Assembly (NCBI GenBank): GCA_947564645.1
Contig: CANOCU010000003.1
Location: forward strand, 3,934-67,933
DNA from: an uncultured Lachnospiraceae bacterium
GTDB lineage: Bacteria > Bacillota > Clostridia > Lachnospirales > Lachnospiraceae
DNA length: 64,000 nucleotides
Direction: 5' to 3'
Shown here: piece by piece, positions 33,398-46,925 of the stretch
How positions within the stretch are numbered: the first letter of the stretch is position 1
How the letters are laid out: each line of letters starts with the position of its first letter
Notes under the pieces: model-generated
Database searches by the model: none
What the model saw: only the letters and a program-made list of their open reading frames with translations
Told to the model about the DNA's origin: nothing
Program-made: the position numbers and the translations under genes

Positions 33398-33456
33398 AAA
33401 CACTGCAGGAAACAAAGAAACTGCAAGACTTGGGCAATGCCAGACCGGGCGGCTGT

Positions 33457-34557
33457 TCACGTAAAGAACAGCCGCCCGGTATTTTCGGAAAGACATACGT
33501 TCTCCGGGATATGGCCTCTGCTGACATGCCGGATCATCCGTTCCACTTCCGGGATCATATTGACCGGCCGAACGGTAACCTGGGGATGTTCTCGTGTAAA
33601 CACCCGGAATATCTCATCCGCAAATCCCTGTCCCATCAATTCAACTCTGCTGAAATCCAAAACTACCTCCTTAAATTCATCCAGCCGGTTGCAGATCCGC
33701 CTGGCCTGTGACCGCGCTACCGGTTCTCCTGACAGACATGCCTCCTTCACCGGTATCCTCGTGCGTATAAATCCCTCATCTATATCCGTATACATGTCAA
33801 ACACCTCCGAAAGCTTCCTGGATGTTTCATTTTCCAGTGTCATCATGACCAGCGTGCCGATATCCTGCAGTCGGGAAACATATGCCAACAGCCGGTGCTC
33901 TATGACTTTCATATCCTGCCCGTATCCGAATTTATAAATTCTCGCGTCTGACCAGATCCCAAATTCTGACATTACCTTCGATGAAAAAAAGATACCTTCA
34001 CCGGAATGTCTGCTCCTGTCACTTGTAATCTTTCCTTTATACAACTCAATCAATGCATCTCCGTAATCAGGGGTATCCCATCCGTTCTCCTCCATATATT
34101 CTAATAAAGTCTGAAAGATTCCTACCCCGTTATCTGCGATCACAACGCTGCTGTTCAGCGCATTCGTCCTTACAATAATACGTATTCTGTCACCCCTTGC
34201 ATGTTCGATCGCGTTATTTAATATTTCGGCGCAGGCATATTGCCAGATTCTCCTCGCGTTCTCATTGCAGCCGCTCAGTTCCTTCTCTATATGCAGCGCA
34301 TATAAGCGATCCTCTTCCAGCCTGTTCCTTTTTAAATCTATCTGCTCTTCCTTTACATGCTCTATCAGTCGATATTGACAGTCTGCCTTCACGTCTTTCA
34401 TGATCGCTTTACATTCGATTGCTTTATCTATAAATTCCCCTACAGACTCCGGCGATATATCGAAATTATCCATCGTTTTGTCAATAAAGTCTCTATCGTT
34501 TACTGCAATCTTGCTGAGAATGTATTTCCTGATCTCTTCTCTCTTCCTATGATCCAA
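33457..34557 (-). CDS. HATPase_c + DUF4325 (STAS-like) protein
   Basis: EILNNAIEHA, DNGVGIF, GEGIFFS; C-terminal SRSQARRI...VVLDFSRVELMGQGFADEIFR. Confidence 0.75.
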   Translation of the reverse strand: MDHRKREEIRKYILSKIAVNDRDFIDKTMDNFDISPESVGEFIDKAIECKAIMKDVKADCQYRLIEHVKEEQIDLKRNRLEEDRLYALHIEKELSGCNENARRIWQYACAEILNNAIEHARGDRIRIIVRTNALNSSVVIADNGVGIFQTLLEYMEENGWDTPDYGDALIELYKGKITSDRSRHSGEGIFFSSKVMSEFGIWSDARIYKFGYGQDMKVIEHRLLAYVSRLQDIGTLVMMTLENETSRKLSEVFDMYTDIDEGFIRTRIPVKEACLSGEPVARSQARRICNRLDEFKEVVLDFSRVELMGQGFADEIFRVFTREHPQVTVRPVNMIPEVERMIRHVSRGHIPENVCLSENTGRLFFT

Positions 34558-38738: not shown

Positions 38739-41241
38739 CGGCTTCCACCTCCCTGCCCTCCAATTCCGGCGACACAGCCGCCGTCATATTCCGGTATTCC
38801 TCCTCCGTCAGCTGCGTCACATCACCCGCTTCCACATAAGCGCTCACATTACCCCGTACAATGGCATTCATGGTTCCGGTCACCGTTCCCTCGATGCGGC
38901 CGCGCACGAGACCGTCCACCTTGACCAGACCCGTGGCATTCTTCGTGCGGATCGGCATATTCATGACAAAAGCCGTCTTCTCTATGATCGTATCGCCCAC
39001 CAGCAGGATCTGTGGCAGCACGAACATTGTGATAAAGATAGAGATCAGCGTTCCCCGGCCCAGGCACTTACCGATCCCGAAGATCGCCACATCCGAAGTC
39101 AGCTTCCCGATCAGCACGCCGGACACCGCCAGCATCGTCCCCGAAGTGACGATGGTCGGAAAGGACAGATTCATAGTGTCCATAATGGACTGCCGCCGCC
39201 CCATGCTCTTACGCAGCTCCGTATACCGGCTGGCAATGACGATCGCGTAATCGATATTGGCGCCCATCTGAATCGAGCTGACGATCAGATACCCCATGAA
39301 GAAAAGATTGTCGTGGGCAATGGCCGGCACGGAGAAGTTGATCCAGATACTGCCCTGGATGACTGCGATCAAAAGCACCGGCATTCCAGCCGATTTAAAG
39401 GTAAACAGTAATACCACTAGCACCACAAGGATGGACACCACATTTACCACGATGTTATCTCTGGCAAAAGTCTTCTGTAAATCGTACTGACTCACCGACT
39501 CACCGCACACGAGCACACCGCCGTCGTAATAGTGCCCGGCGATCTCATGCATTTTATCCAAAAAGGCAAAAGTCTCTTCACTCTCCTCCGGCAGCGTCAG
39601 GTACACCAGCATACGGCTGTAATTCTCACCCTGCAGCTGATTCTTCGCAAAGGTCATCTGCTTATATGCGTCATCCAGCGTCTCCTGCAGTTCCTCCTCC
39701 AGTGTCACATAGCCTTCCTCCACCTCGTCATAGACGAACAGGAACATCTCGATCAAAGGCACCTGATAATCCGCCAGTCCATTGACCACTTTCGCATAGT
39801 CCTCATCATTGACCGCGTAAGCCGCATAAACAAGTTCCGCCACCTCATAGTCCAGATCGATCAGCTCCGAAAACTGCCGGGGCGTCAGCTTATCCGTCAG
39901 ATGATAGCCATCCAGCGCCTCAATATTCGCAAGCCCCATGCTGTAATCCACCTCCGGACAGGCATCCAGATCCTGCAAAAGCGCCTTTTCCTTCTCATAA
40001 TCCCCTGCCGGCACGATCAGCGCTACCATGTTGGAATCCCCGAAATTATCTTCCTGCATTTCCTCCGCTTTCTGTACGCTGTTCTGCAGCGGCGGTGTGA
40101 CCGTACTGTAGCCAAATACATAAGGGCAGTTCTTGGATACCATATACGCCGCAATGATTGCCACCAGAAAGAGCGGCGCCACGACATAGCGGGACACATA
40201 GGCAAATTTGCCGACGATCGGGATATCCGGAATGAAATTCTTATGCTTCGTCTTTTCCATCAGATTGGAAAAAAGCATGATAACGCCCGGCATCAGCAGG
40301 AATACCGCACACAGGCTTAAGATGATCGCCTTGATCAGCACGATCCCCATATCCGGCCCCATCTTATACTGCATAAAAGTCATGGCAATCAGACCGCCGA
40401 TCGTGGTAAGCGAACTGCCCGCGATCTCCGGGATTGCCTTGCTGAGCGCGATGATCACCGCTTCCCTGGCCGGCAGCGATGCATGTTCCTCTTTATAACG
40501 ATTTAAAAGAATGACCGCATAGTCCACCGACAATGCCAGCTGCAGCACGATGGTGACCGAGTTCGACACGAAAGAGATCGTTCCAAACAGGAAATTCGTG
40601 CCCATATTGATGATCGCCGCCGACAGGAACGTGATCAGAAGGACCGGAATCTCCGCATAAGCCTGCGTTGTCAAGAGCAGTACCGATACCACCACAATGG
40701 CGACCAGTACCGTGATCGTGTTCATCTCCTGTCCGATCAGTTCCGACTGCGTATCCCCCAGGCTGGTGGTCAGATAATAATCGCAGCCCTCCAGACGCTC
40801 CTTCACGGCATTAAGCGCCTCCAGACAGGCGTCCTCCTTTTCATCATAGTCAAAAGTCACATTATAATAAGCCGAACCGTTGGTATAATGCTCCGGCGTA
40901 TCGTCAAAATCTACCGAAAAGACCCCCGGCGACTGCTCTAACCGCTCACAGATCTCCTCCGCCTGCCCGTAAGAAACGTTCGCCACCATCACATTGCAGG
41001 TGCCGTATGTAATAAACTCCTCCTCCATCAGATCCAGTCCCTGCCTGGTCTCCGTGGTTCCCGGCAGATAATGGGCCATGGAATTCTCCACCCCGACCCA
41101 GTTCCTGGAGATGGCCGAAAAAATAATCAGGAGTCCGAAGAGCAGGAAAAAGAGATTTCTCTTATCTACAATAAACCCGCATATCTTCAGCATCGCCTGA
41201 TTATCGTTCTTGTTCGTATTCAATTCTTTCTCCATCTGCAA
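38731..41241 (-). CDS. MMPL/RND-family transporter
   Basis: Two MMPL repeats with LALSVDYAVILL and GANIDYAIVI; stop overlaps the start of the GLUG gene. Confidence 0.87.
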   Translation of the reverse strand: MQMEKELNTNKNDNQAMLKICGFIVDKRNLFFLLFGLLIIFSAISRNWVGVENSMAHYLPGTTETRQGLDLMEEEFITYGTCNVMVANVSYGQAEEICERLEQSPGVFSVDFDDTPEHYTNGSAYYNVTFDYDEKEDACLEALNAVKERLEGCDYYLTTSLGDTQSELIGQEMNTITVLVAIVVVSVLLLTTQAYAEIPVLLITFLSAAIINMGTNFLFGTISFVSNSVTIVLQLALSVDYAVILLNRYKEEHASLPAREAVIIALSKAIPEIAGSSLTTIGGLIAMTFMQYKMGPDMGIVLIKAIILSLCAVFLLMPGVIMLFSNLMEKTKHKNFIPDIPIVGKFAYVSRYVVAPLFLVAIIAAYMVSKNCPYVFGYSTVTPPLQNSVQKAEEMQEDNFGDSNMVALIVPAGDYEKEKALLQDLDACPEVDYSMGLANIEALDGYHLTDKLTPRQFSELIDLDYEVAELVYAAYAVNDEDYAKVVNGLADYQVPLIEMFLFVYDEVEEGYVTLEEELQETLDDAYKQMTFAKNQLQGENYSRMLVYLTLPEESEETFAFLDKMHEIAGHYYDGGVLVCGESVSQYDLQKTFARDNIVVNVVSILVVLVVLLFTFKSAGMPVLLIAVIQGSIWINFSVPAIAHDNLFFMGYLIVSSIQMGANIDYAIVIASRYTELRKSMGRRQSIMDTMNLSFPTIVTSGTMLAVSGVLIGKLTSDVAIFGIGKCLGRGTLISIFITMFVLPQILLVGDTIIEKTAFVMNMPIRTKNATGLVKVDGLVRGRIEGTVTGTMNAIVRGNVSAYVEAGDVTQLTEEEYRNMTAAVSPELEGREVEADA

Positions 41242-41350
41242 GCGCCTCCTTCACTTGTAGTAAACAGCATTATACGTCTCTGCTTCCGGTTCCTGCTAAA
41301 GTCCTAAGCTGGGGCAATAAGCCAAAGCTTCCTGCAGGATCGAATTCGGG

Positions 41351-41407
41351 ATTTCTATAATGTTGTTTACTGTTATAGTAAACGAAATTTCTAACGTCGT
41401 TAACTAT
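41351..41407 (-). repeat. 34-bp imperfect palindrome, copy 2 (41374-41407), plus an adjacent partial copy (41351-41371)
   Basis: Reverse complement is ATAGTTAACGACGTTAGAAATTTCGTTTACTATA; the partial copy reads AGTAAACAACATTATAGAAAT. Confidence 0.8.
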
Positions 41408-41539
41408 AAGAAGGAATTATAGCACTGTAGAGGGAAGCTATCAATATCAAATGGGAATTGGGAGATATACAATTTGGAGGGATTGTATATTGCAAAGCTA
41501 CACTATAAAATCCTCCAGTTTATCATGTAGTATACAGTT

Positions 41540-42457
41540 TCAATGACTTAAGCCCTTCATTTTTATTTCAAATTCCGAAATGCTGGTTGCTGACGCTGCG
41601 CATCTGAGCCATCTGCCCAAAATATTTAAGTCCTTTTCCTGACTAATCTGCCGCATAAGTTTTGCAGGGATTTTTCCCAATTCTGCCAACAACTCCAAAA
41701 TATCTTCTATTTTCCCCTCAATTTTTCCCTCTATTTTCCCCTCAATTTTTCCTTCTGCTTTTCCCTCCTTTTTGCCTTCTTGCCTAATTCTGTCTACTAT
41801 CTCGCACATGATGTTTATCCCCTCCTTCTGCGCCTTATAAAAATTGACACGCTCGACGATTCGCGGAAACTCTTCCGTACAATAGAACGGTTCCGATTTT
41901 TTAATATACCGCAGCAGTTCATTCATTTTCTGAGAGCCTGTCGTATACTTCAGATTAAAGTATTTTTCACACACCCCATTCTCCAGGTTAGCTGCCGCAT
42001 CCGTCTTTCCTTCTACCGTTCTTCTAATTTGGTAAAATCCCTTCTTACCGCCGATGAAATCCGATTTGGTAATATACAGAATTGTCACGGAAGGCAGTTC
42101 ATCATACTCTTTCCCTTTATCCAATATGCTCATATCAATGCAGGATGTGTAATATCTGGTCCTTCGAAACGGTTCCGCTTCTTTGTACATCTGCAGCTCT
42201 ACATTGATCAGACCTCCGGTTACCGTCTCCGCCAGAATATCAAGCTGCACCGAATGGCTTATCAGGTTCCTGATCACATACTGCGTCTTCACATCCTTAA
42301 GCTGCAGGCCGGGATCCTGCATCAGAATCCGACATAGTTCCTGGCAAGCCGTCAGATCCTCAAACACTTTGCCGGCAAAAAGATCGCTTGTCAGGTTAAA
42401 CTCCTGTATCCGCTCCCGCTTCTGCTCCAATGTTTCTGTCATTGCTATTCCATCCAT
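41540..42457 (-). CDS. Rpn-family (PD-(D/E)XK) recombination-promoting nuclease, copy 1
   Basis: SDLFAGKVF, VQLDILA...INVELQ, RTRYY; C-terminal (EGKI)n repeats. Confidence 0.88.
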   Translation of the reverse strand: MDGIAMTETLEQKRERIQEFNLTSDLFAGKVFEDLTACQELCRILMQDPGLQLKDVKTQYVIRNLISHSVQLDILAETVTGGLINVELQMYKEAEPFRRTRYYTSCIDMSILDKGKEYDELPSVTILYITKSDFIGGKKGFYQIRRTVEGKTDAAANLENGVCEKYFNLKYTTGSQKMNELLRYIKKSEPFYCTEEFPRIVERVNFYKAQKEGINIMCEIVDRIRQEGKKEGKAEGKIEGKIEGKIEGKIEDILELLAELGKIPAKLMRQISQEKDLNILGRWLRCAASATSISEFEIKMKGLSH

Positions 42458-42610
42458 TGTAAACCTCCCTTATTAATTTACTGCAGGAGTCTGTTACAAT
42501 GTATGAAAAAGAGAAATTGATCCCTGATCCTTCTCTGGAATCAAACCCAATATTTTATGATAACAGTCCTGCCAAACAAATGTGAATCTTCGGCAGAACT
42601 GCCTGACTGC
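42033..42610. repeat. 578-bp direct repeat, copy 1 (5' half of rpn plus upstream region)
   Basis: Matches 45135-45712 at a constant 3102-bp offset; only 2 mismatches seen by eye. Confidence 0.92.
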
Positions 42611-42784
42611 ACTCATGATGCCGCCTATAAAACCTCATAAAACAGATGTATTTAGATTTTATGCTTCAAAACGTGCACATTAAAGAATCAAGATTTGTTT
42701 AATGAAAGAAGTATGTGAAACTGCACTGATTTACCGCAGTTTCACATACCGATTATATCAAATTACTTATGCGACAACTAGCTA

Positions 42785-43843
42785 TTATCTTTCTCTGTCA
42801 CATAATACAATTTCGGGTCTGATCGGACACCCACCCATACAATGTTTCCGGTTATCGCAGTTCGGACACGCCGTTCTGAATCTATCCCTAAAATCCTCGA
42901 ATTTCTTACTGTTCCAAGCCTCTTCGATTGTATGCGTTTTTAAATCCACCGCCCATCTCTGCTCCTGGTTGTCAAAGCTGCATGGCAGCATTTTCATATC
43001 TGCTGTGACATAGGCAGACCATCTTGCTCCTTCACATGTGTCCAAACTGTCTGTGTCAATAATACCCGGATGATTCAGTAGTGCTGGCACCGTACATGAA
43101 TCAAAACCTATCTTATAGCCGGAAGCTCCCGAACTGATATACTGTATCAGGTGGATAAACTCCTGATTATCCTGCCCAATCACATTGTCAGGAGAACCCA
43201 GTCCTACCGGCTTATGCAGTAAAAAGATAATGGCATTGATCCCCTCAGGAAAACTGTGTTCCTCCAACCTTTCCAAAGCCTCTGCAACAGTATTCTTACT
43301 TAGAACATAGTGAATGTTCGTTTTAACCCCGAATGCTGTCAGCAACTCTATTGCATGCAGTGTGTATTCACTTCTATACCAACTGACTGCAACCGCTCCG
43401 CAATAGTTACGGCATAATTTCGCAATACTTTCTGTCATACCCAGACCGGAAGTGGTAAAGTTGGCTACAATCCCCGACTCTTTACATACTGCAAGGATCT
43501 CCTCGAAATCTTCATGCTGATCCGGATCCCCACATCCTCCCAGTGCAAACTGATAGGTCCTGCCTTTACACTGCCCGGCGATCGTTTTAAAATCCTGCAG
43601 ACACATATTAGGCCGATCAGAATGCAGGCCATCCTGATAACACTCAACACCTGCCTTCATACACAACCCGCTCTTCCCATGCCTGCAATGTCCCATAATA
43701 CCCACATCCAGCAGTTCAGGAAAGGAACTCATAAAAGGGTCTTCCCCGGTATCTTTTCCTGAGATAATTATACCCGTGCGCAGATACTTCCCGGTTTTTT
43801 CATCAAAAAAGGTCATAAACTCTTTTTCTCTTCGTATTTTCAT
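42785..43843 (-). CDS. Radical SAM/SPASM-domain protein with non-canonical cluster motif
   Basis: GIMGHC-x7-C-x6-CYQ, ALGGCGDP, NFTTSG, and a SPASM-like CEGA...LPC...CPNC...CMGGC...C. Confidence 0.82.
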   Translation of the reverse strand: MKIRREKEFMTFFDEKTGKYLRTGIIISGKDTGEDPFMSSFPELLDVGIMGHCRHGKSGLCMKAGVECYQDGLHSDRPNMCLQDFKTIAGQCKGRTYQFALGGCGDPDQHEDFEEILAVCKESGIVANFTTSGLGMTESIAKLCRNYCGAVAVSWYRSEYTLHAIELLTAFGVKTNIHYVLSKNTVAEALERLEEHSFPEGINAIIFLLHKPVGLGSPDNVIGQDNQEFIHLIQYISSGASGYKIGFDSCTVPALLNHPGIIDTDSLDTCEGARWSAYVTADMKMLPCSFDNQEQRWAVDLKTHTIEEAWNSKKFEDFRDRFRTACPNCDNRKHCMGGCPIRPEIVLCDRER

Positions 43844-43851
43844 AGCCGTCT

Positions 43852-44226
43852 TTAATAGTCTAAGGATCCATCGATCGCTTCAAAGTTGTCACAGTCTGCT
43901 TCTTCCAGCTTTTTCCATAGATCAATAAACATTTCTGCCAGATCATACTCACATTCTTCAAAAATCACCTCACCATGATAAATGGCTTTCTCTTCCTTCA
44001 ATGCCTCCCTTATTTTATCCTGATCATCCTCATCAATATAATGATCTTCGAATGCCTTCTGAATTGTATCTTCATCGCTATCAGGCGTCAGCATCTTTCT
44101 GCCAAGCATATTTTCTTCAACATACTCAATAATTGCCTGCTTTTGTTTCTCTGTCAGTTCTCCTTTTCTTGCTAAAATGAAACTGCTGCTGCTCGAATTT
44201 GTCACAAAATCCGTCCTTACCTTCAT
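43852..44226 (-). CDS. Acidic protein with N-terminal MKVRTDFVTNSSSSSF poly-Ser motif
   Basis: Strong RBS AAGGAGG; 124 aa; ends 8 bp before the radical SAM gene. Confidence 0.85.
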   Translation of the reverse strand: MKVRTDFVTNSSSSSFILARKGELTEKQKQAIIEYVEENMLGRKMLTPDSDEDTIQKAFEDHYIDEDDQDKIREALKEEKAIYHGEVIFEECEYDLAEMFIDLWKKLEEADCDNFEAIDGSLDY

Positions 44227-44296
44227 GGTATATCTCCTCCTTCATGGGCCGTTATTTGGTTCTGATAAGAAGATACCACATTTTCAACTAGCTTTC

Positions 44297-44315
44297 ATTG
44301 GACTGTTAGTCCAAT
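44297..44315. promoter_or_regulatory. Perfect palindrome, candidate operator
   Basis: ATTGGACT-GTT-AGTCCAAT overlapping the HTH stop codon, next to an ATGAAA-17-TATCTT promoter with extended -10 TG (minus strand, 44270-44298). Confidence 0.6.
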
Positions 44316-44665
44316 CTGCTGCCATTATTTTGTATCATTGTCCAATAAAGGAAGAGCCTTTTTCCCGTAACGGAAATTTCCTCCTCTTCATAGGATGATT
44401 CGGGTACAATCAGCTCGTCCATGTGAACTTTCAATAGTCTGCTCAACACATACAAATGATCCAACGAAGGTAAAATGCGCCCCTTAAACCATCTGTATAT
44501 TGGCTGCGGACAAGATAACCGCAGTTTCTCCTGTATCTCTTTCACAGAATAACCCGCTGCAAAAATTTGATCCTTCAACCTCATTCCGGTTTTTACCATA
44601 TCGATATGCTGATAATCCTCTCTGTTCACAACTGCCGTCTTCCCCATTCTATCATCCCGTATCAT
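44306..44665 (-). CDS. Xre/Cro-type HTH transcriptional regulator
   Basis: SVKEIQEKLRLSCPQPIYRWFKGRILPSLDHLYVLSRLL; true start may be ATG 44647. Confidence 0.82.
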   Translation of the reverse strand: MIRDDRMGKTAVVNREDYQHIDMVKTGMRLKDQIFAAGYSVKEIQEKLRLSCPQPIYRWFKGRILPSLDHLYVLSRLLKVHMDELIVPESSYEEEEISVTGKRLFLYWTMIQNNGSRLD

Positions 44666-44704
44666 TCTGCCATGACCACTTCCATGCCAAAGCTGCTCTT
44701 TGCT

Positions 44705-45559
44705 TCACATCCTTCTCTCAAACTCCAAGATACTGGATGCAGACGCTGCACATCTGAGCCATCTGCCCAAGACCTTCAGATCCGTTTCCTGCCTAATCCG
44801 CTGTGCGATCCTTGTCGGAATTTTACCCAGTTCTTCCAGCAGATCCAAAATGTCTTCTATTTTTCCTTCTATTTTTCCTTCCTTCTTAATCCTGTCCGCT
44901 ATTTCACACATAATATCTACACCTTCCCTTTGAATCTTATAGTAGTTGACTCTCTCCACAATTCGCGGAAATAATTTCGTCTGATAGTATGGGGTTGAAT
45001 TTTCCAAATATTGCAGCAACTCATTGATTTCCTTATACCTTGTCGGATACTTCAAATTGAAGTACTTCTCGTACAATCCATTATCCAAACCCGTTCCTTC
45101 CGGATTCTTTCTGTCTGTTTTTCTTCTGATTTGATAAAATCCCTTCTTACCGCCGATGAAATCCGATTTGGTAATATACAGGATTGTCACGGAAGGCAGT
45201 TCATAATACTCTTTCCCTTTATCCAATATGCTCATATCAATGCAGGATGTGTAATATCTGGTCCTTCGAAACGGTTCCGCTTCTTTGTACATCTGCAGCT
45301 CTACATTGATCAGACCTCCGGTTACCGTCTCCGCCAGAATATCAAGCTGCACCGAATGGCTTATCAGGTTCCTGATCACATACTGCGTCTTCACATCCTT
45401 AAGCTGCAGGCCGGGATCCTGCATCAGAATCCGACATAGTTCCTGGCAAGCCGTCAGATCCTCAAACACTTTGCCGGCAAAAAGATCGCTTGTCAGGTTA
45501 AACTCCTGTATCCGCTCCCGCTTCTGCTCCAATGTTTCTGTCATTGCTATTCCATCCAT
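44705..45559 (-). CDS. Rpn-family nuclease, copy 2
   Basis: N-terminal ~140 aa identical to copy 1 except D/Y; C-terminal half diverged. Confidence 0.88.
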   Translation of the reverse strand: MDGIAMTETLEQKRERIQEFNLTSDLFAGKVFEDLTACQELCRILMQDPGLQLKDVKTQYVIRNLISHSVQLDILAETVTGGLINVELQMYKEAEPFRRTRYYTSCIDMSILDKGKEYYELPSVTILYITKSDFIGGKKGFYQIRRKTDRKNPEGTGLDNGLYEKYFNLKYPTRYKEINELLQYLENSTPYYQTKLFPRIVERVNYYKIQREGVDIMCEIADRIKKEGKIEGKIEDILDLLEELGKIPTRIAQRIRQETDLKVLGRWLRCAASASSILEFERRM

Positions 45560-45712
45560 TGTAAACCTCCCTTATTAATTTACTGCAGGAGTCTGTTACA
45601 ATGTATGAAAAAGAGAAATTGATCCCTGATCCTTCTCTGGAATCAAACCCAATATTTTATGATAACAGTCCTGCCAAACAAATGTGAATCTTCGGCAGAA
45701 CTGCCTGACTGC
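45135..45712. repeat. 578-bp direct repeat, copy 2
   Basis: See 42033-42610. Confidence 0.92.
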
Positions 45713-45878
45713 GCCGGTAATGTCCCTCGAAAAGGTAGCATGAAAAAGTGCCTTCAAATATTTATGCACCGCACGCATTTAAGAATCAAGATTTGTTTTC
45801 ATAAAAGAAGTATATCATATAACTACTTTTACCGCAATAGATTTCGCAAATAAATTTAAACGTTTTTTCGTTCTCAAA

Positions 45879-46925
45879 TCAGATGCCTTTCTCAATCATT
45901 ACTTTATTTGTGAAAATCTCTTTATCCTGCATGGCCGCCAGCCCCTCCCCCAGCTTCTCAAAGGAGTACCTCTGCGTGATCTGTCCTGAGGGTCGTATCC
46001 TGCCTGTTCGTATCGCTTCGATCACAATATGCCAGTCATCATCCGCTTCTTTGGTAAAAGATGAATTCCACATGCCACGAAGTGTAAGCTGCCGACGCAG
46101 TACCTTCCAGTATATCTGTTTATCCAACTCAATATCCCCCGCCGGATTCCCCACCAGCACTACCTGTCCACCGGCCTTGGCCGAGCTGACAGCATTGCTT
46201 ATACTTTCCACCAGTCCAACACATTCAAAGATAAGATCTACCCCTTCTGCTCCTGTCTGTTCCATGATATAACCGACCGGATCCTTGTCCCTGCAGTTGC
46301 AAAATACACACTTGGCCAATCCGGTGACCAAATCCCTCTGCTCTTTTCTGGTTCCCACCGCAAAGATCTGCGAAATCCCCATGGAAGCCAGCCATTGTAT
46401 GATCAGCGTACCAATCGTCCCACAACCATAGACTGCCACACTCTTAATATCCGTCAGATCCACCTGTCTGATCGCATGTCTGGCGACACAGGCAGGTTCC
46501 AGCATTGCGGCATCCTCGAAGCTGACTTCGGGTGGCAGCTCGATCAGATTCCAGACCGGAACCGCCACATATTCGGCAAAGCCGCCGTCTGTCCTGGATC
46601 CCAGATAATTATAAGACCGGCACATCTCATACGCCTTTGCCTTACATGACTCACACTTCATACAGGGAATCAGCGGAAATACACCAACTCTTTTTCCAAG
46701 CAGCGCTCCATGCGCTTCCGACCCGACTTCCCGTACGATCCCGGCAAATTCATGTCCGGGCACCGTCGGAAAATGATAGGTTCCGGTCTCAAAAATACGC
46801 GGAATGTCAGAACCGCAGATTCCGACATTGACCACCTCTATAAGCGCCTCGTCCTCATGAATCTGCGGTACCTGAATATCCTTATATGCCAGTTGTCCCA
46901 CTGCTTCCAATACATAAGCTTTCAT
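45879..46925 (-). CDS. Zn-dependent sugar-alcohol-phosphate dehydrogenase (galactitol-1-P DH-like)
   Basis: GICGSD, GHEFAG, structural Zn motif CMKCESC...C, LEPAC, YGCGTIG. Confidence 0.85.
   Translation of the reverse strand: MKAYVLEAVGQLAYKDIQVPQIHEDEALIEVVNVGICGSDIPRIFETGTYHFPTVPGHEFAGIVREVGSEAHGALLGKRVGVFPLIPCMKCESCKAKAYEMCRSYNYLGSRTDGGFAEYVAVPVWNLIELPPEVSFEDAAMLEPACVARHAIRQVDLTDIKSVAVYGCGTIGTLIIQWLASMGISQIFAVGTRKEQRDLVTGLAKCVFCNCRDKDPVGYIMEQTGAEGVDLIFECVGLVESISNAVSSAKAGGQVVLVGNPAGDIELDKQIYWKVLRRQLTLRGMWNSSFTKEADDDWHIVIEAIRTGRIRPSGQITQRYSFEKLGEGLAAMQDKEIFTNKVMIEKGI

What the first reader, a model, noticed from the sequence alone, without database searches (positions are those of the whole stretch)
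41540..45840. Rpn genes form 578-bp direct repeats bracketing a 3.1-kb exchangeable cassette
Seen: 42033-42610 and 45135-45712 (5' half of rpn plus promoter region) differ at only about 2 positions. The 3' halves of the genes and the far-upstream DNA (e.g. AAGAATCAAGATTTGTTT at 42683 and 45781) are homologous but clearly diverged. A near-identical core inside older homology points to recent recombination or gene conversion rather than a simple duplication. Inference: crossover between the repeats would excise or amplify a 3102-bp unit carrying rpn2, HTH, the poly-Ser gene and the rSAM gene. The conserved rpn 5' half could therefore act as a landing pad for swapping a variable Rpn C-terminus plus cargo.
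Basis: partly seen in the sequence, partly recalled or inferred. Interest (0 to 1): 0.7.

Follow-up and report, generated by a model that had tools for sequence, protein, structure and literature searches.

The report
Twin Rpn genes sharing a converted half
Two neighbouring copies of an Rpn toxin-antitoxin defence gene in a mouse-gut Lachnospiraceae have identical promoters and nuclease halves, most likely through gene conversion, while their antitoxin halves stay old and different; the three genes between them look like a fixed insert, not a cassette seen to be swapped.

Summary
Bases 42033-42610 and 45135-45712 differ at two of 578 positions, while the flanking homologous DNA is only 60-70% identical. 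Both copies lie in minus-strand Rpn genes (PD-(D/E)XK nucleases with an internal RpnS antitoxin reading frame). The repeat covers a predicted promoter, the 5' UTR and codons 1-142. Synonymous divergence is 0.02 inside the repeat and about 2 in the rest of the genes. The genes are therefore old paralogues with a recent recombination patch, not a recent duplication. The patch groups with relatives of rpnA, so rpnA probably overwrote rpnB. The C-terminal halves stay distinct (six versus two four-residue repeats), as expected for two non-cross-reacting Rpn toxin-antitoxin pairs. Contigs from 16 mouse and rat gut metagenome runs show the same repeat-insert-repeat layout. The repeat is at about twice single-copy depth and the insert at single-copy depth. 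No deletion, amplification or alternative cargo was seen. The insert (HTH regulator, 124-aa protein, radical SAM/SPASM enzyme) usually occurs elsewhere without flanking rpn. Related rpn genes are solitary. Gene conversion is supported. The "exchangeable cassette / landing pad" idea is not. This is a new member of a known kind and of modest interest.

The parts
41540..42457 (-). rpnA: full-length Rpn nuclease (RpnL-type, 305 aa) with a PD-(D/E)XK core (D73, E87-x-Q89)
   Evidence: PF12784 scores 33.1 bits (cut-off 27.4). TIGR01784 'Rpn family recombination-promoting nuclease' scores 52.8 bits (cut-off 52.1).
41540..41809 (-). Candidate intragenic antitoxin reading frame RpnS_A (Met217 to stop, 89 aa)
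   Evidence: An in-frame ATG is preceded by GAAGGAGGGG 8 nt upstream. The four-residue repeats start 10 residues after this Met, as described for RpnS in PMC10400941. Translation from this start has not been shown.
41708..41779 (-). Six 12-nt (four-residue) repeats in rpnA: EGKK EGKA EGKI x4
   Evidence: Copy number varies between strains: 12 nt fewer in X8 and X16, 24 nt fewer in X14.
42033..42610 (-). Repeat copy R1: codons 1-142 of rpnA plus 153 nt upstream
   Evidence: Two mismatches in 578 nt against R2.
42557..42586 (-). Predicted sigma-70-type promoter inside R1 (TTCACA, 18 nt, TG-TATCAT); its equivalent in R2 is 45659-45688
   Evidence: Consensus scan, 10 of 12 matches with an extended -10. 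This is a prediction only.
42561..42603 (-). Near-invariant 15-bp-stem palindrome/hairpin around the -35 box (GGCAGTTCTGCCGAA...TTTGGCAGGACTGTT); the R2 copy is 45663-45705
   Evidence: Nearly invariant across 12 distinct rpn leader sequences, which show three single-base variants. Folding gives dG -23.6 kcal/mol, z -4.3. Its function is inferred (a possible operator).
42611..42784 (-). Diverged far leader of rpnA plus a terminator-like hairpin of the upstream operon (arms 42698-42724 and 42736-42762)
   Evidence: Homology to other rpn leaders starts at about 42714.
42785..43843 (-). Radical SAM/SPASM-fold enzyme (352 aa) with the non-canonical cysteine motif C53-x7-C61-x6-C68
   Evidence: PF13186 SPASM. 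AF2 model has pLDDT 78. Foldseek top hits are SuiB, PqqE and anSME at TM about 0.6. The cysteines are invariant in 31 homologues.
43852..44226 (-). 124-aa acidic protein with the N-terminal motif DFVTNSSSSSF; constant partner of the radical SAM gene
   Evidence: No family passes a curated cut-off. The family has 292 clusters. It lies directly upstream of the radical SAM gene in every locus where upstream DNA was available.
44306..44665 (-). Xre-type HTH regulator (119 aa)
   Evidence: PF01381 scores 24.4 bits (cut-off 23).
44705..45559 (-). rpnB: second Rpn nuclease (284 aa). RpnS_B candidate is 44705-44911 (68 aa). Two 12-nt repeats lie at 44858-44881.
   Evidence: PF12784 scores 31.8 bits. 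A nonsense allele (E212stop, 44926) in X8/X16/L001 leaves the RpnS_B frame intact.
45135..45712 (-). Repeat copy R2: codons 1-142 of rpnB plus 153 nt upstream
45713..45872 (-). Diverged far leader of rpnB and right-hand border of the low-GC islet
   Evidence: Homology to rpn units in L008, L010, L014 and L015 ends at 45872. X14 and X15 carry a 66-nt insertion at 45874/45875. GC is 39-45% in the islet and 48-56% in the flanks.

Best explanation
Bases 41.5-45.9 kb form a small low-GC accessory islet in a murine-gut Lachnospiraceae. It holds two old paralogues of the Rpn toxin-antitoxin defence gene, in direct orientation, on either side of an HTH / 124-aa / radical SAM-SPASM operon. The 578-bp near-identity is a gene-conversion tract, that is, non-reciprocal homologous recombination between the two copies 3.1 kb apart. 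The tract copied rpnA's proximal leader (predicted promoter, palindrome, 5' UTR) and its nuclease core (codons 1-142) over the matching part of rpnB. It ends on both sides in blocks that are conserved across the family. The middle region and the C-terminal RpnS/oligomerisation region were not converted. They keep saturated synonymous divergence and different four-residue repeat numbers (six versus two). By the published rule that RpnS only neutralises an RpnL with the same repeat number, the cell would then have two mutually insulated toxin-antitoxin pairs built on one and the same nuclease and promoter. Shown here: the anatomy, the divergence contrast, the family assignment, the presence of the layout in many samples, and the strain-to-strain variation in repeat number. 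Inferred: the conversion mechanism and its direction, RpnS translation from Met217, insulation of the two pairs, and any defence role.
For: (1) Repeat identity is 576/578, against 70% in the 3' parts and 60% in the far leader, p = 2e-60. (2) dS is 0.02 in codons 1-142 and 1.8-2.2 in codons 143 to the end, with dN 0.14-0.31. The 3' parts are therefore old and under purifying selection. (3) Other rpn pairs, including two paralogues in one sister MAG at separate loci, are 77-83% identical in the repeat-equivalent coding segment, so homogenisation is specific to this adjacent pair. (4) Segment incongruence: the nearest relatives of the shared N-terminal half are P0124, P0121 and P0122 in 94% of bootstraps. 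These are also the nearest relatives of rpnA's middle region (100%). rpnB's middle region is nearest to P0127 (78%). rpnA's far leader also groups with L014, whose rpn encodes a P0124-like protein (72% against 56-60% for other pairs). rpnA is thus a coherent unit and rpnB is the mosaic. (5) Mosaic relatives exist; for example, P0208 has a P0122-like N-terminus and a P0127-like middle region. (6) Independent samples: contigs in X2-X7, X11 and X15 break at the repeat edges. Repeat depth is 15-35 against insert depth 8-15 and flank depth 7-15. (7) Concerted evolution: in strain X11 (1.2% diverged in the insert) the repeat is a single contig at 2.0 times insert depth. It carries six substitutions plus small indels relative to the window, so both copies appear to share them. 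(8) Rpn features match PMC10400941: an internal Met with a Shine-Dalgarno sequence, four-residue repeats starting 10 residues later, and repeat number varying among strains by 12 or 24 nt.
Against: Replacement of rpnB's 5' half by DNA from another cell would leave the same pattern, so it cannot be separated from intragenomic conversion. The direction (rpnA to rpnB) rests on differences of 5-6 percentage points in identity to relatives that are themselves mosaic. Short-read de Bruijn contigs cannot phase the two copies, and bubble popping can hide a few SNPs; the collapsed repeat contig differs at 0-5 SNPs between samples with identical inserts. Both tract ends fall in blocks conserved family-wide, so their exact positions are uncertain by tens of bases. 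RpnB falls below the TIGR01784 cut-off (45.5 against 52.1 bits). No DUF4351 match was found for either C-terminus. Nuclease activity, RpnS translation and phage defence were not tested for these genes.
Confidence: 0.7

Rival explanations
1. A circular DNA carrying an rpn paralogue plus the HTH / 124-aa / radical SAM operon integrated by a single crossover in the conserved rpn 5' half. This created the two repeats. The unit can leave, amplify or be exchanged the same way.
For: Repeat-insert-repeat is exactly the product of a single crossover. Both products of a reverse crossover would carry a complete rpn gene (sequence logic). A 3132-nt contig (3102 + 30) closes on itself in run X8/L001. In one unrelated lineage (L021) an rpn gene and a duplicated RpnS frame also lie next to the 124-aa / radical SAM pair.
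Against: The model requires rpnA's far leader and rpnA's 3' part to have come from different molecules, yet both, and the repeat itself, group with the same relatives. No other allele with this N-terminal half was found in a 5.8-billion-protein collection; the best is 84%. The insert is at single-copy depth and the arrangement and cargo are the same in all informative runs. The X8 cycle is expected from a de Bruijn graph when the two copies are identical, and X8 carries the rpnA alleles at both variable sites. The nearest copy of the cargo outside this species is only 80% identical in protein, so there is no sign of recent transfer. Other copies of the operon lack flanking rpn in the contexts examined.
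Confidence: 0.12
2. Allelic replacement from outside the cell. The 5' half of one rpn copy was replaced by homologous recombination with imported DNA from a related strain that carried an rpnA-like allele, not by copying from the neighbouring gene.
For: rpn genes are horizontally mobile, and mosaic alleles exist among relatives. The pattern left in the sequence would be the same.
Against: A perfect donor lies 3.1 kb away in the same genome. A diverged strain (X11) again has two identical copies with its own shared changes, which would need parallel imports. No external source of this N-terminal half was found.
Confidence: 0.1
3. A recent duplication of the whole rpn gene, followed by very fast diversifying selection on the 3' half only.
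For: Rpn C-termini are reported as hypervariable and presumed to be under phage-driven selection.
Against: Synonymous sites in the 3' part are saturated (dS about 2) with dN/dS about 0.1. This indicates age plus purifying selection, not positive selection. The non-coding far leader is equally diverged at 60%.
Confidence: 0.02
4. Assembly or polishing artefact. The two copies were made artificially identical, or the insert was misjoined, in the source assembly.
For: Repeats longer than a read are classic sites of collapse or consensus homogenisation.
Against: Eight runs from six studies (mouse, rat and one run of unrecorded source) give contigs that end within 30 nt of both repeat edges. They give a 2578-2587-nt insert contig and repeat contigs at raised depth. 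The window still keeps two differences between the copies.
Confidence: 0.02

Closest known systems
Rpn (YhgA-like) recombination-promoting nucleases acting as RpnL toxin / intragenic RpnS antitoxin antiphage systems (Kingston 2017, PMC5350276; Zhong 2023, PMC10400941)
   Same: Both have an N-terminal PD-(D/E)XK domain with a D...ExQ motif, an in-frame internal start with a Shine-Dalgarno sequence, and four-residue repeats starting 10 residues after that start. Repeat number varies between strains. Genomic distribution is patchy, with no inverted repeats or target-site duplication.
   Different: These proteins match PF12784/TIGR01784, not the E. coli PF04754 model. No DUF4351 match was found. 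No activity, toxicity, RpnS translation or phage defence was tested here. Partial homogenisation of two co-resident copies is not described in those papers; 'gene conversion' occurs 0 times in each.
rpn gene arrays and extra downstream RpnS genes generated by tandem direct duplication (Zhong 2023, text and SI Fig. S1B as cited)
   Same: Two rpn genes lie in direct orientation at one locus. The authors already propose recombination as the source of such arrangements.
   Different: Here the copies are old paralogues (dS about 2), not fresh duplicates. They are separated by an unrelated three-gene operon, and only the 5' 578 bp is shared.
Concerted evolution of dispersed or tandem bacterial paralogues by RecA-dependent gene conversion, for example tufA/tufB in Salmonella (from my own knowledge, not checked here)
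   Same: A near-identical tract lies inside diverged surroundings. Within-genome copies are more alike than orthologues in other strains. Tract ends lie in well-conserved sequence.
   Different: Only part of the gene is homogenised. The unconverted part is the module that, in Rpn proteins, sets toxin-antitoxin partner specificity.
Units bounded by direct repeats that delete, circularise or amplify by homologous recombination, for example IS26-bounded translocatable units and tandem amplifications (from my own knowledge)
   Same: Two direct repeats of 578 bp bracket 2.5 kb of cargo, so RecA-mediated loss or duplication is physically possible.
   Different: The repeats are not insertion sequences and no transposase is involved. 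No circle, empty site, amplification or second genomic context was detected.
Radical SAM/SPASM protein- or peptide-modifying maturases (SuiB, PqqE, anSME)
   Same: The predicted fold of the 352-aa cargo enzyme matches them (TM about 0.6). It has a C-terminal SPASM domain and a small partner protein encoded directly upstream.
   Different: It has C-x7-C-x6-C in place of the canonical CxxxCxxC motif. The partner is 124 aa with an N-terminal Ser run and belongs to no described family. The substrate and reaction are unknown.

Membership tests
Rpn family (RpnL/RpnS toxin-antitoxin nucleases) | N-terminal PD-(D/E)XK nuclease domain recognised by the family models | tested here: met
   PF12784 scores 33.1 and 31.8 bits (cut-off 27.4) for both proteins. 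TIGR01784 scores 52.8 bits for RpnA (cut-off 52.1) but 45.5 for RpnB, which is below the cut-off.
Rpn family (RpnL/RpnS toxin-antitoxin nucleases) | Catalytic acidic residues plus an ExQ motif (D63, E82 and Q84 in E. coli RpnA; PMC5350276) | tested here: inconclusive
   D73 and E87-L-Q89 are present in both proteins within the Pfam-matched core. They were located by eye, not by alignment to E. coli RpnA (one search gives the reference residues).
Rpn family (RpnL/RpnS toxin-antitoxin nucleases) | A small RpnS protein translated from an internal start in the same frame | not testable with these tools
   Met217 has an upstream AGGAGG in rpnA and GGGAAGG in rpnB. In strain X8 a stop codon at residue 212 leaves exactly this 68-aa frame intact, and a gene caller picked it up. 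No ribosome profiling or protein data are available.
Rpn family (RpnL/RpnS toxin-antitoxin nucleases) | Four-residue repeats 8-20 residues after the RpnS start, with number varying among strains | tested here: met
   Repeats start 10 residues after Met217. There are six in rpnA and two in rpnB. rpnA has 12 nt fewer in X8/X16 and 24 nt fewer in X14.
Rpn family (RpnL/RpnS toxin-antitoxin nucleases) | Toxicity of RpnL, neutralisation by the cognate RpnS, and antiphage activity | not testable with these tools
   These need expression and phage assays.
Gene-conversion tract between paralogues | A near-identical block with sharp edges inside clearly older homology | tested here: met
   576/578 against 60-70% in the flanks. 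dS is 0.02 against about 2.
Gene-conversion tract between paralogues | Different segments of one gene have different nearest relatives | tested here: met
   rpnB: the N-terminal half is nearest the rpnA-type proteins (94% of bootstraps) and the middle region is nearest P0127 (78%).
Gene-conversion tract between paralogues | Copies within a genome co-vary across strains (concerted evolution) | tested here: inconclusive
   In X11 and X15 the repeat collapses to a contig at about 2 times single-copy depth that carries strain-specific changes. Short-read contigs cannot phase the copies, and bubble popping may hide SNPs.
Exchangeable or mobilisable cassette bounded by direct repeats | An empty site or an excised circle is detectable | tested here: not met
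   No 3102-nt skip joint was found in 16 runs. The insert is at single-copy depth. The only self-closing contig is most simply a graph cycle. This is contig-level evidence only, and no long reads were available.
Exchangeable or mobilisable cassette bounded by direct repeats | Different cargo between the same repeats, or the same cargo in other contexts, in related genomes | tested here: not met
   The cargo is the same in all strains. The closest copy elsewhere is 80% identical in protein. The 14 related rpn loci are solitary.
Radical SAM/SPASM maturases | Radical SAM barrel plus a C-terminal SPASM domain with auxiliary-cluster cysteines | tested here: met
   PF13186 scores 29.5 bits (cut-off 21.5) and TIGR04085 scores 29 bits (cut-off 27). 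Foldseek matches SuiB, PqqE and anSME at E about 1e-9, TM about 0.6.
Radical SAM/SPASM maturases | Canonical CxxxCxxC motif binding the SAM cluster | tested here: not met
   The sequence has C53-x7-C61-x6-C68 instead, invariant in 31 homologues. The PF04055 model is not matched by the window protein.

The most novel reading that the evidence does not exclude
Rpn units (a conserved ~313-nt leader with a near-invariant palindrome, plus the gene) might act as portable recombination sites. In this reading the RpnL nuclease, or a factor bound at the leader palindrome, stimulates breaks in or near rpn genes. Repair from a paralogue then spreads the promoter and nuclease half between copies but spares the antitoxin-specificity half. 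The same activity would capture and reshuffle neighbouring defence operons between rpn copies. The window would then show one step of a self-promoted way of building a defence islet.
Probability: 0.07. Interest if true: 0.75.

Novelty: new member of a known kind. Interest (0 to 1): 0.3.

Why it matters
Rpn genes were only recently recognised as toxin-antitoxin defence genes whose antitoxin is read from inside the toxin gene. How bacteria that carry several copies keep them from interfering with each other, and how the copies evolve, is still open. This locus is a natural example in which recombination has made two toxin domains and their promoters identical while the partner-specificity modules stay apart. 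Natural gut populations of the species also vary in repeat number, carry a nonsense allele that separates the N-terminal part from RpnS, and show probable insertions or deletions in one copy. That offers a compact pair for testing whether repeat number alone insulates two Rpn systems. It does not reveal a new mobile element or a new mechanism.

Tried and rejected
(1) Exact-protein look-ups of the flanking dehydrogenase and the radical SAM protein found nothing.

(2) The single genome-collection scan with RpnA returned only two loci, both from one sister MAG (MGBC154314, uncultured Lachnospiraceae). The window's own species seems absent from that collection, so no same-species genome could be compared.

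(3) The 3132-nt self-overlapping contig looked at first like a 3.1-kb circle. I rejected it as evidence. It comes from a library labelled transcriptomic, its strain carries identical alleles at both variable repeat sites, and its flanks are thinly covered. A graph cycle is therefore expected.

(4) A search with the N-terminal 146 residues alone returned only fragments of 250 aa or less, at 84% identity or less. It omitted known full-length hits, so it is only a weak test.

(5) PADLOC found no known defence system among the five proteins, apart from a weak RmrA-like match for the HTH protein. Rfam found no RNA family in 41200-46000.

(6) The single-sequence AlphaFold model of the 124-aa protein was unusable (pLDDT 48). 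PDB sequence searches were uninformative.

(7) I checked the rpn leader for a conserved small ORF. The 40/60-aa frames are broken by indels in other loci, so I rejected that idea.

(8) I looked for a clean insertion scar by comparing an rpn-occupied site (L008) with the matching empty site in the window (33398-33479). The intergenic DNA is simply different, with no target duplication or inverted repeats.

(9) No Nanopore or PacBio runs holding the locus could be listed.

(10) A Biopython bootstrap tree timed out and was replaced by a nearest-neighbour bootstrap.

Full report
**Observation**

An ungapped comparison at offset 3102 shows that 42033-42610 and 45135-45712 (578 nt) differ only at 42080/45182 and 42103/45205 (alignment). 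Outside this block homology continues but is much weaker. The gene 3' parts are 70% identical and a stretch of far leader is 60% identical. The contrast between block and flanks gives Fisher p = 2e-60. All genes are on the minus strand. They are rpnA (41540-42457, 305 aa), a radical SAM/SPASM gene (42785-43843), a 124-aa gene with a Ser run (43852-44226), an Xre-type HTH gene (44306-44665) and rpnB (44705-45559, 284 aa). The block covers codons 1-142 of each rpn gene plus 153 nt upstream. That upstream part includes a predicted promoter, TTCACA-18-TATCAT.

**Is it real DNA?**

The locus is present in many mouse and rat gut metagenomes. I laid Logan contigs of 16 runs on it. In X2-X7, X11 and X15, contigs stop within 30 nt of the repeat edges (for example ...-42062 and 45683-...). 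The DNA between the repeats forms one contig of 2578-2587 nt (42581-45164). Repeat contigs have depth 15-35, against 8-15 for the insert and 7-15 for the flanks. This is what a de Bruijn assembler gives for flank-R-U-R-flank with R present twice and U once. The layout is therefore real, and no amplification or mixed deletion is visible. No contig skips 3102 nt.

One contig (L001, from run X8) is 3132 nt long, which is 3102 plus a 30-nt self-overlap. In that strain both variable repeat sites carry the rpnA alleles, so the two copies are identical. The library is labelled transcriptomic and the flanks are thinly covered. A graph cycle is then expected, and I do not count this contig as a circle. 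No long-read runs could be found.

**What the genes are**

Both proteins match PF12784 above its cut-off. RpnA matches TIGR01784, "Rpn family recombination-promoting nuclease", just above its cut-off, while RpnB falls below it. Zhong et al. 2023 (PMC10400941) showed several things about rpn genes:
- They encode a toxic nuclease (RpnL) and, from an internal start, a small antitoxin (RpnS) that is the C-terminal part of the same frame.
- Four-residue repeats begin 8-20 residues after the RpnS start.
- Repeat number varies among strains.
- RpnS neutralises only an RpnL with the same repeat number.

Here both genes have an in-frame Met217 preceded by a Shine-Dalgarno-like sequence (AGGAGG in rpnA). 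The repeats start 10 residues later. There are six in rpnA (EGKK EGKA EGKI x4) and two in rpnB. Natural strains vary: rpnA is 12 nt shorter in X8 and X16 and 24 nt shorter in X14. In X8 and X16, rpnB has a stop at codon 212, five codons before Met217, which leaves the 68-aa RpnS frame intact. These features fit the published family. Activity and RpnS translation remain untested.

**How old are the two halves?**

Nei-Gojobori estimates give dS 0.02 and dN 0.003 for codons 1-142. They give dS 1.8-2.2 and dN 0.14-0.31 for codons 143 to the end. The 3' parts are therefore old paralogues under purifying selection, and a recent duplication with fast divergence is excluded. Other rpn pairs are 77-83% identical in the repeat-equivalent coding segment and 66-78% in the 3' segment. 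This includes two paralogues at separate loci in the sister MAG. Ordinary constraint thus cannot produce 99.5-100% identity. The block is a recent recombination patch.

**Which copy was the donor?**

Among full-length relatives, the shared N-terminal half is closest to P0124, P0121 and P0122 (80-84%). These same proteins are closest to rpnA's middle region. rpnB's middle region is closest to P0127. In a nearest-neighbour bootstrap these assignments hold in 94%, 100% and 78% of replicates. rpnA's far leader is also closest to L014, the locus of a P0124-type gene (72% against 56-60%). rpnA is thus one coherent unit and rpnB is the mosaic, so rpnA most likely overwrote rpnB. Mosaic relatives such as P0208 show that such exchanges recur in this family.

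**Is homogenisation ongoing?**

In X11 the insert differs from the window at 31 of 2584 positions. Its repeat is one 554-nt contig at 16.8 depth, against 8.4 for the insert. That contig carries six substitutions and small indels relative to the window. In X15 (48 differences in the insert) the left part of the repeat is again one contig at twice single-copy depth, with its own SNPs. Copies within a genome therefore seem to share strain-specific changes, which is the mark of concerted evolution.

Short-read contigs cannot phase the copies, however. In samples with identical inserts the collapsed repeat contig differs at 0-5 SNPs (42197, 42220, 42299, 42344, 42419). This suggests a few real differences between the copies, or strain mixtures, resolved arbitrarily by the assembler. 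I rate this point as suggestive only.

**Surroundings and relatives**

The islet (about 41.5-45.87 kb) has 39-45% GC, against 48-56% in the flanks. It lies between an MMPL transporter gene and genes that look like teichoic-acid synthesis genes (my reading of the Pfam hits and the neighbours seen).

All 14 related rpn loci hold a single rpn gene and no cassette. They are L008-L015 and L023-L026 and L028-L032. L027 matched the DNA pattern but encodes no rpn relative. Their homology to the window covers the gene plus about 313 nt of leader, ending at 45872, in quite different neighbourhoods. In L008 an rpn unit lies between a DUF4325 gene and the Mnh operon. The same junction in the window (33398-33479) is empty and shows no insertion scar. 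This agrees with the published view that rpn genes move without transposon-like ends.

**The cargo**

The 124-aa gene and the radical SAM/SPASM gene are adjacent wherever upstream DNA was available. An HTH gene precedes them in some loci. Their neighbours are often defence-like genes (AAA_21 + RloB, TIR_2, Schlafen-like, RlaP, Macro, helicase-PLD). In those loci the pair is not flanked by rpn. One lineage (L021) does have an rpn gene and a duplicated RpnS frame beside the pair.

The enzyme model (pLDDT 78) matches SuiB, PqqE and anSME. The usual CxxxCxxC motif is replaced by an invariant C-x7-C-x6-C. PADLOC does not know the module. The closest copy outside this species is 80% identical in protein, so nothing points to recent movement of this cassette.

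**Verdict on the interpretation**

Gene conversion, or an equivalent recombination patch, is well supported. Deletion or duplication of the 3102-bp unit by a crossover between the repeats is physically possible. It would leave a complete hybrid rpn gene. It was not observed.

The "landing pad" idea would need rpnA's leader and 3' part to have arrived on different molecules, although both group with the same relatives. It would also need other alleles sharing this N-terminal half, and none was found.

From general knowledge of toxin-antitoxin genes, loss of rpnB together with the insert could even be counter-selected if RpnS_B is less stable than RpnL_B. That is my inference and was not tested.

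**Comparison and novelty**

The genes belong to the known Rpn family. Tandem rpn arrangements, hypervariable C-termini and recombination-driven change are already described. Partial homogenisation of two co-resident copies that spares the specificity module is not mentioned in those papers. It is an expected outcome of ordinary homologous recombination. I class it as a new member of a known kind, with modest interest (0.3). The most novel reading still open is that Rpn units promote their own recombination and assemble defence islets. I give it about 7%.

Noticed in passing
window 42561-42603 and 45663-45705; also 42683-42700 and 45781-45798: The rpn leaders carry two modules that are nearly invariant across 12 distinct leader sequences from different species, although the genes themselves are only 65-83% identical. 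One is AAACAAATCTTGATTCTT, just after a TGnTATACT promoter-like box. The other is a 15-bp-stem palindrome/hairpin (dG -23.6, z -4.3) with the -35 box of a second predicted promoter in its loop. It could be an operator for autoregulation or a leader RNA structure. No Rfam family matches it.
   Followed up: partly
window 41373-41409: A 12-13-12 palindrome (TTATAGTAAACG...CGTTAACTATAA) lies downstream of a strong promoter-like site in front of the MMPL transporter gene. In all 12 metagenome runs laid across it, this ~36-mer has depth 50-350 (about 2000 at one position) in 6-13 contigs with unrelated flanks. It is therefore a very widespread short element in gut bacteria. It occurs once in the window and has no Rfam hit.
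   Followed up: partly
window 42785-44226 (and loci L002-L007, L016-L022): The radical SAM/SPASM-fold enzyme has an invariant C-x7-C-x6-C motif instead of CxxxCxxC. Its gene follows that of an uncharacterised 124-aa acidic protein with an N-terminal DFVTNSSSSSF motif (292 clusters). The pair often lies beside defence-type genes (AAA_21/RloB, TIR_2, Schlafen-like, RlaP, Macro, helicase-PLD) and is absent from PADLOC. It is a candidate protein-modification or defence module of unknown function.
   Followed up: partly
L021 289-1547 and 2164-3468: In an unrelated metagenome lineage, an rpn gene (309 aa, five EIGK repeats) and a duplicated RpnS-only frame (73 aa) lie divergently next to the 124-aa / radical SAM pair. 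That radical SAM protein (P0107, 434 aa) has an added C-terminal tail with four-residue-like repeats that resembles an Rpn C-terminus. No Pfam model supports the resemblance.
   Followed up: partly
window 44926 (runs X8, X16; L001 position 776): In some strains rpnB carries a nonsense change (E212stop) five codons before the internal Met217. This splits the gene into a 211-aa N-terminal product and an intact 68-aa RpnS frame.
   Followed up: yes
window 42275-42560, equivalent to 45377-45662 (runs X15, X17, X18, X19): A variant path replaces 284 nt with 24 nt (CTTCTCTGTAATCCAATCTTTTTT). The lost stretch holds the start of the -10 box, the 5' UTR, the RBS and about codons 1-60. In X15 the variant and the full path have equal depth, so probably one of the two rpn copies is 5'-truncated in that strain group. 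Which copy cannot be told from short contigs.
   Followed up: partly
window 42526-42533, equivalent to 45628-45635 (runs X3-X7): Loose contig ends read GTAAACGGTAGATAGTG... after 42533, and nearly its reverse complement before the position equivalent to 42526. These are inverted ends with an 8-bp overlap, the signature of an IS or MITE insertion with a target duplication in the 5' UTR of one rpn copy. The element is not in the window or in any fetched locus.
   Followed up: partly
window 33398-33479 compared with L008 8617-10014: In a related species an rpn unit lies between a DUF4325 gene and the Mnh antiporter operon. In the window the same junction is an 82-nt spacer with a bidirectional terminator. 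The two intergenic regions are simply different, with no scar, target duplication or inverted repeats.
   Followed up: yes
window 45874/45875 and 45800-45801: Diverged strains (X14, X15) have a 66-nt insertion exactly at the right border of the rpnB unit, just after the stop codon of the dehydrogenase gene. Several strains lack one base of the A/T run at 45800-45801 in the rpnB far leader.
   Followed up: no
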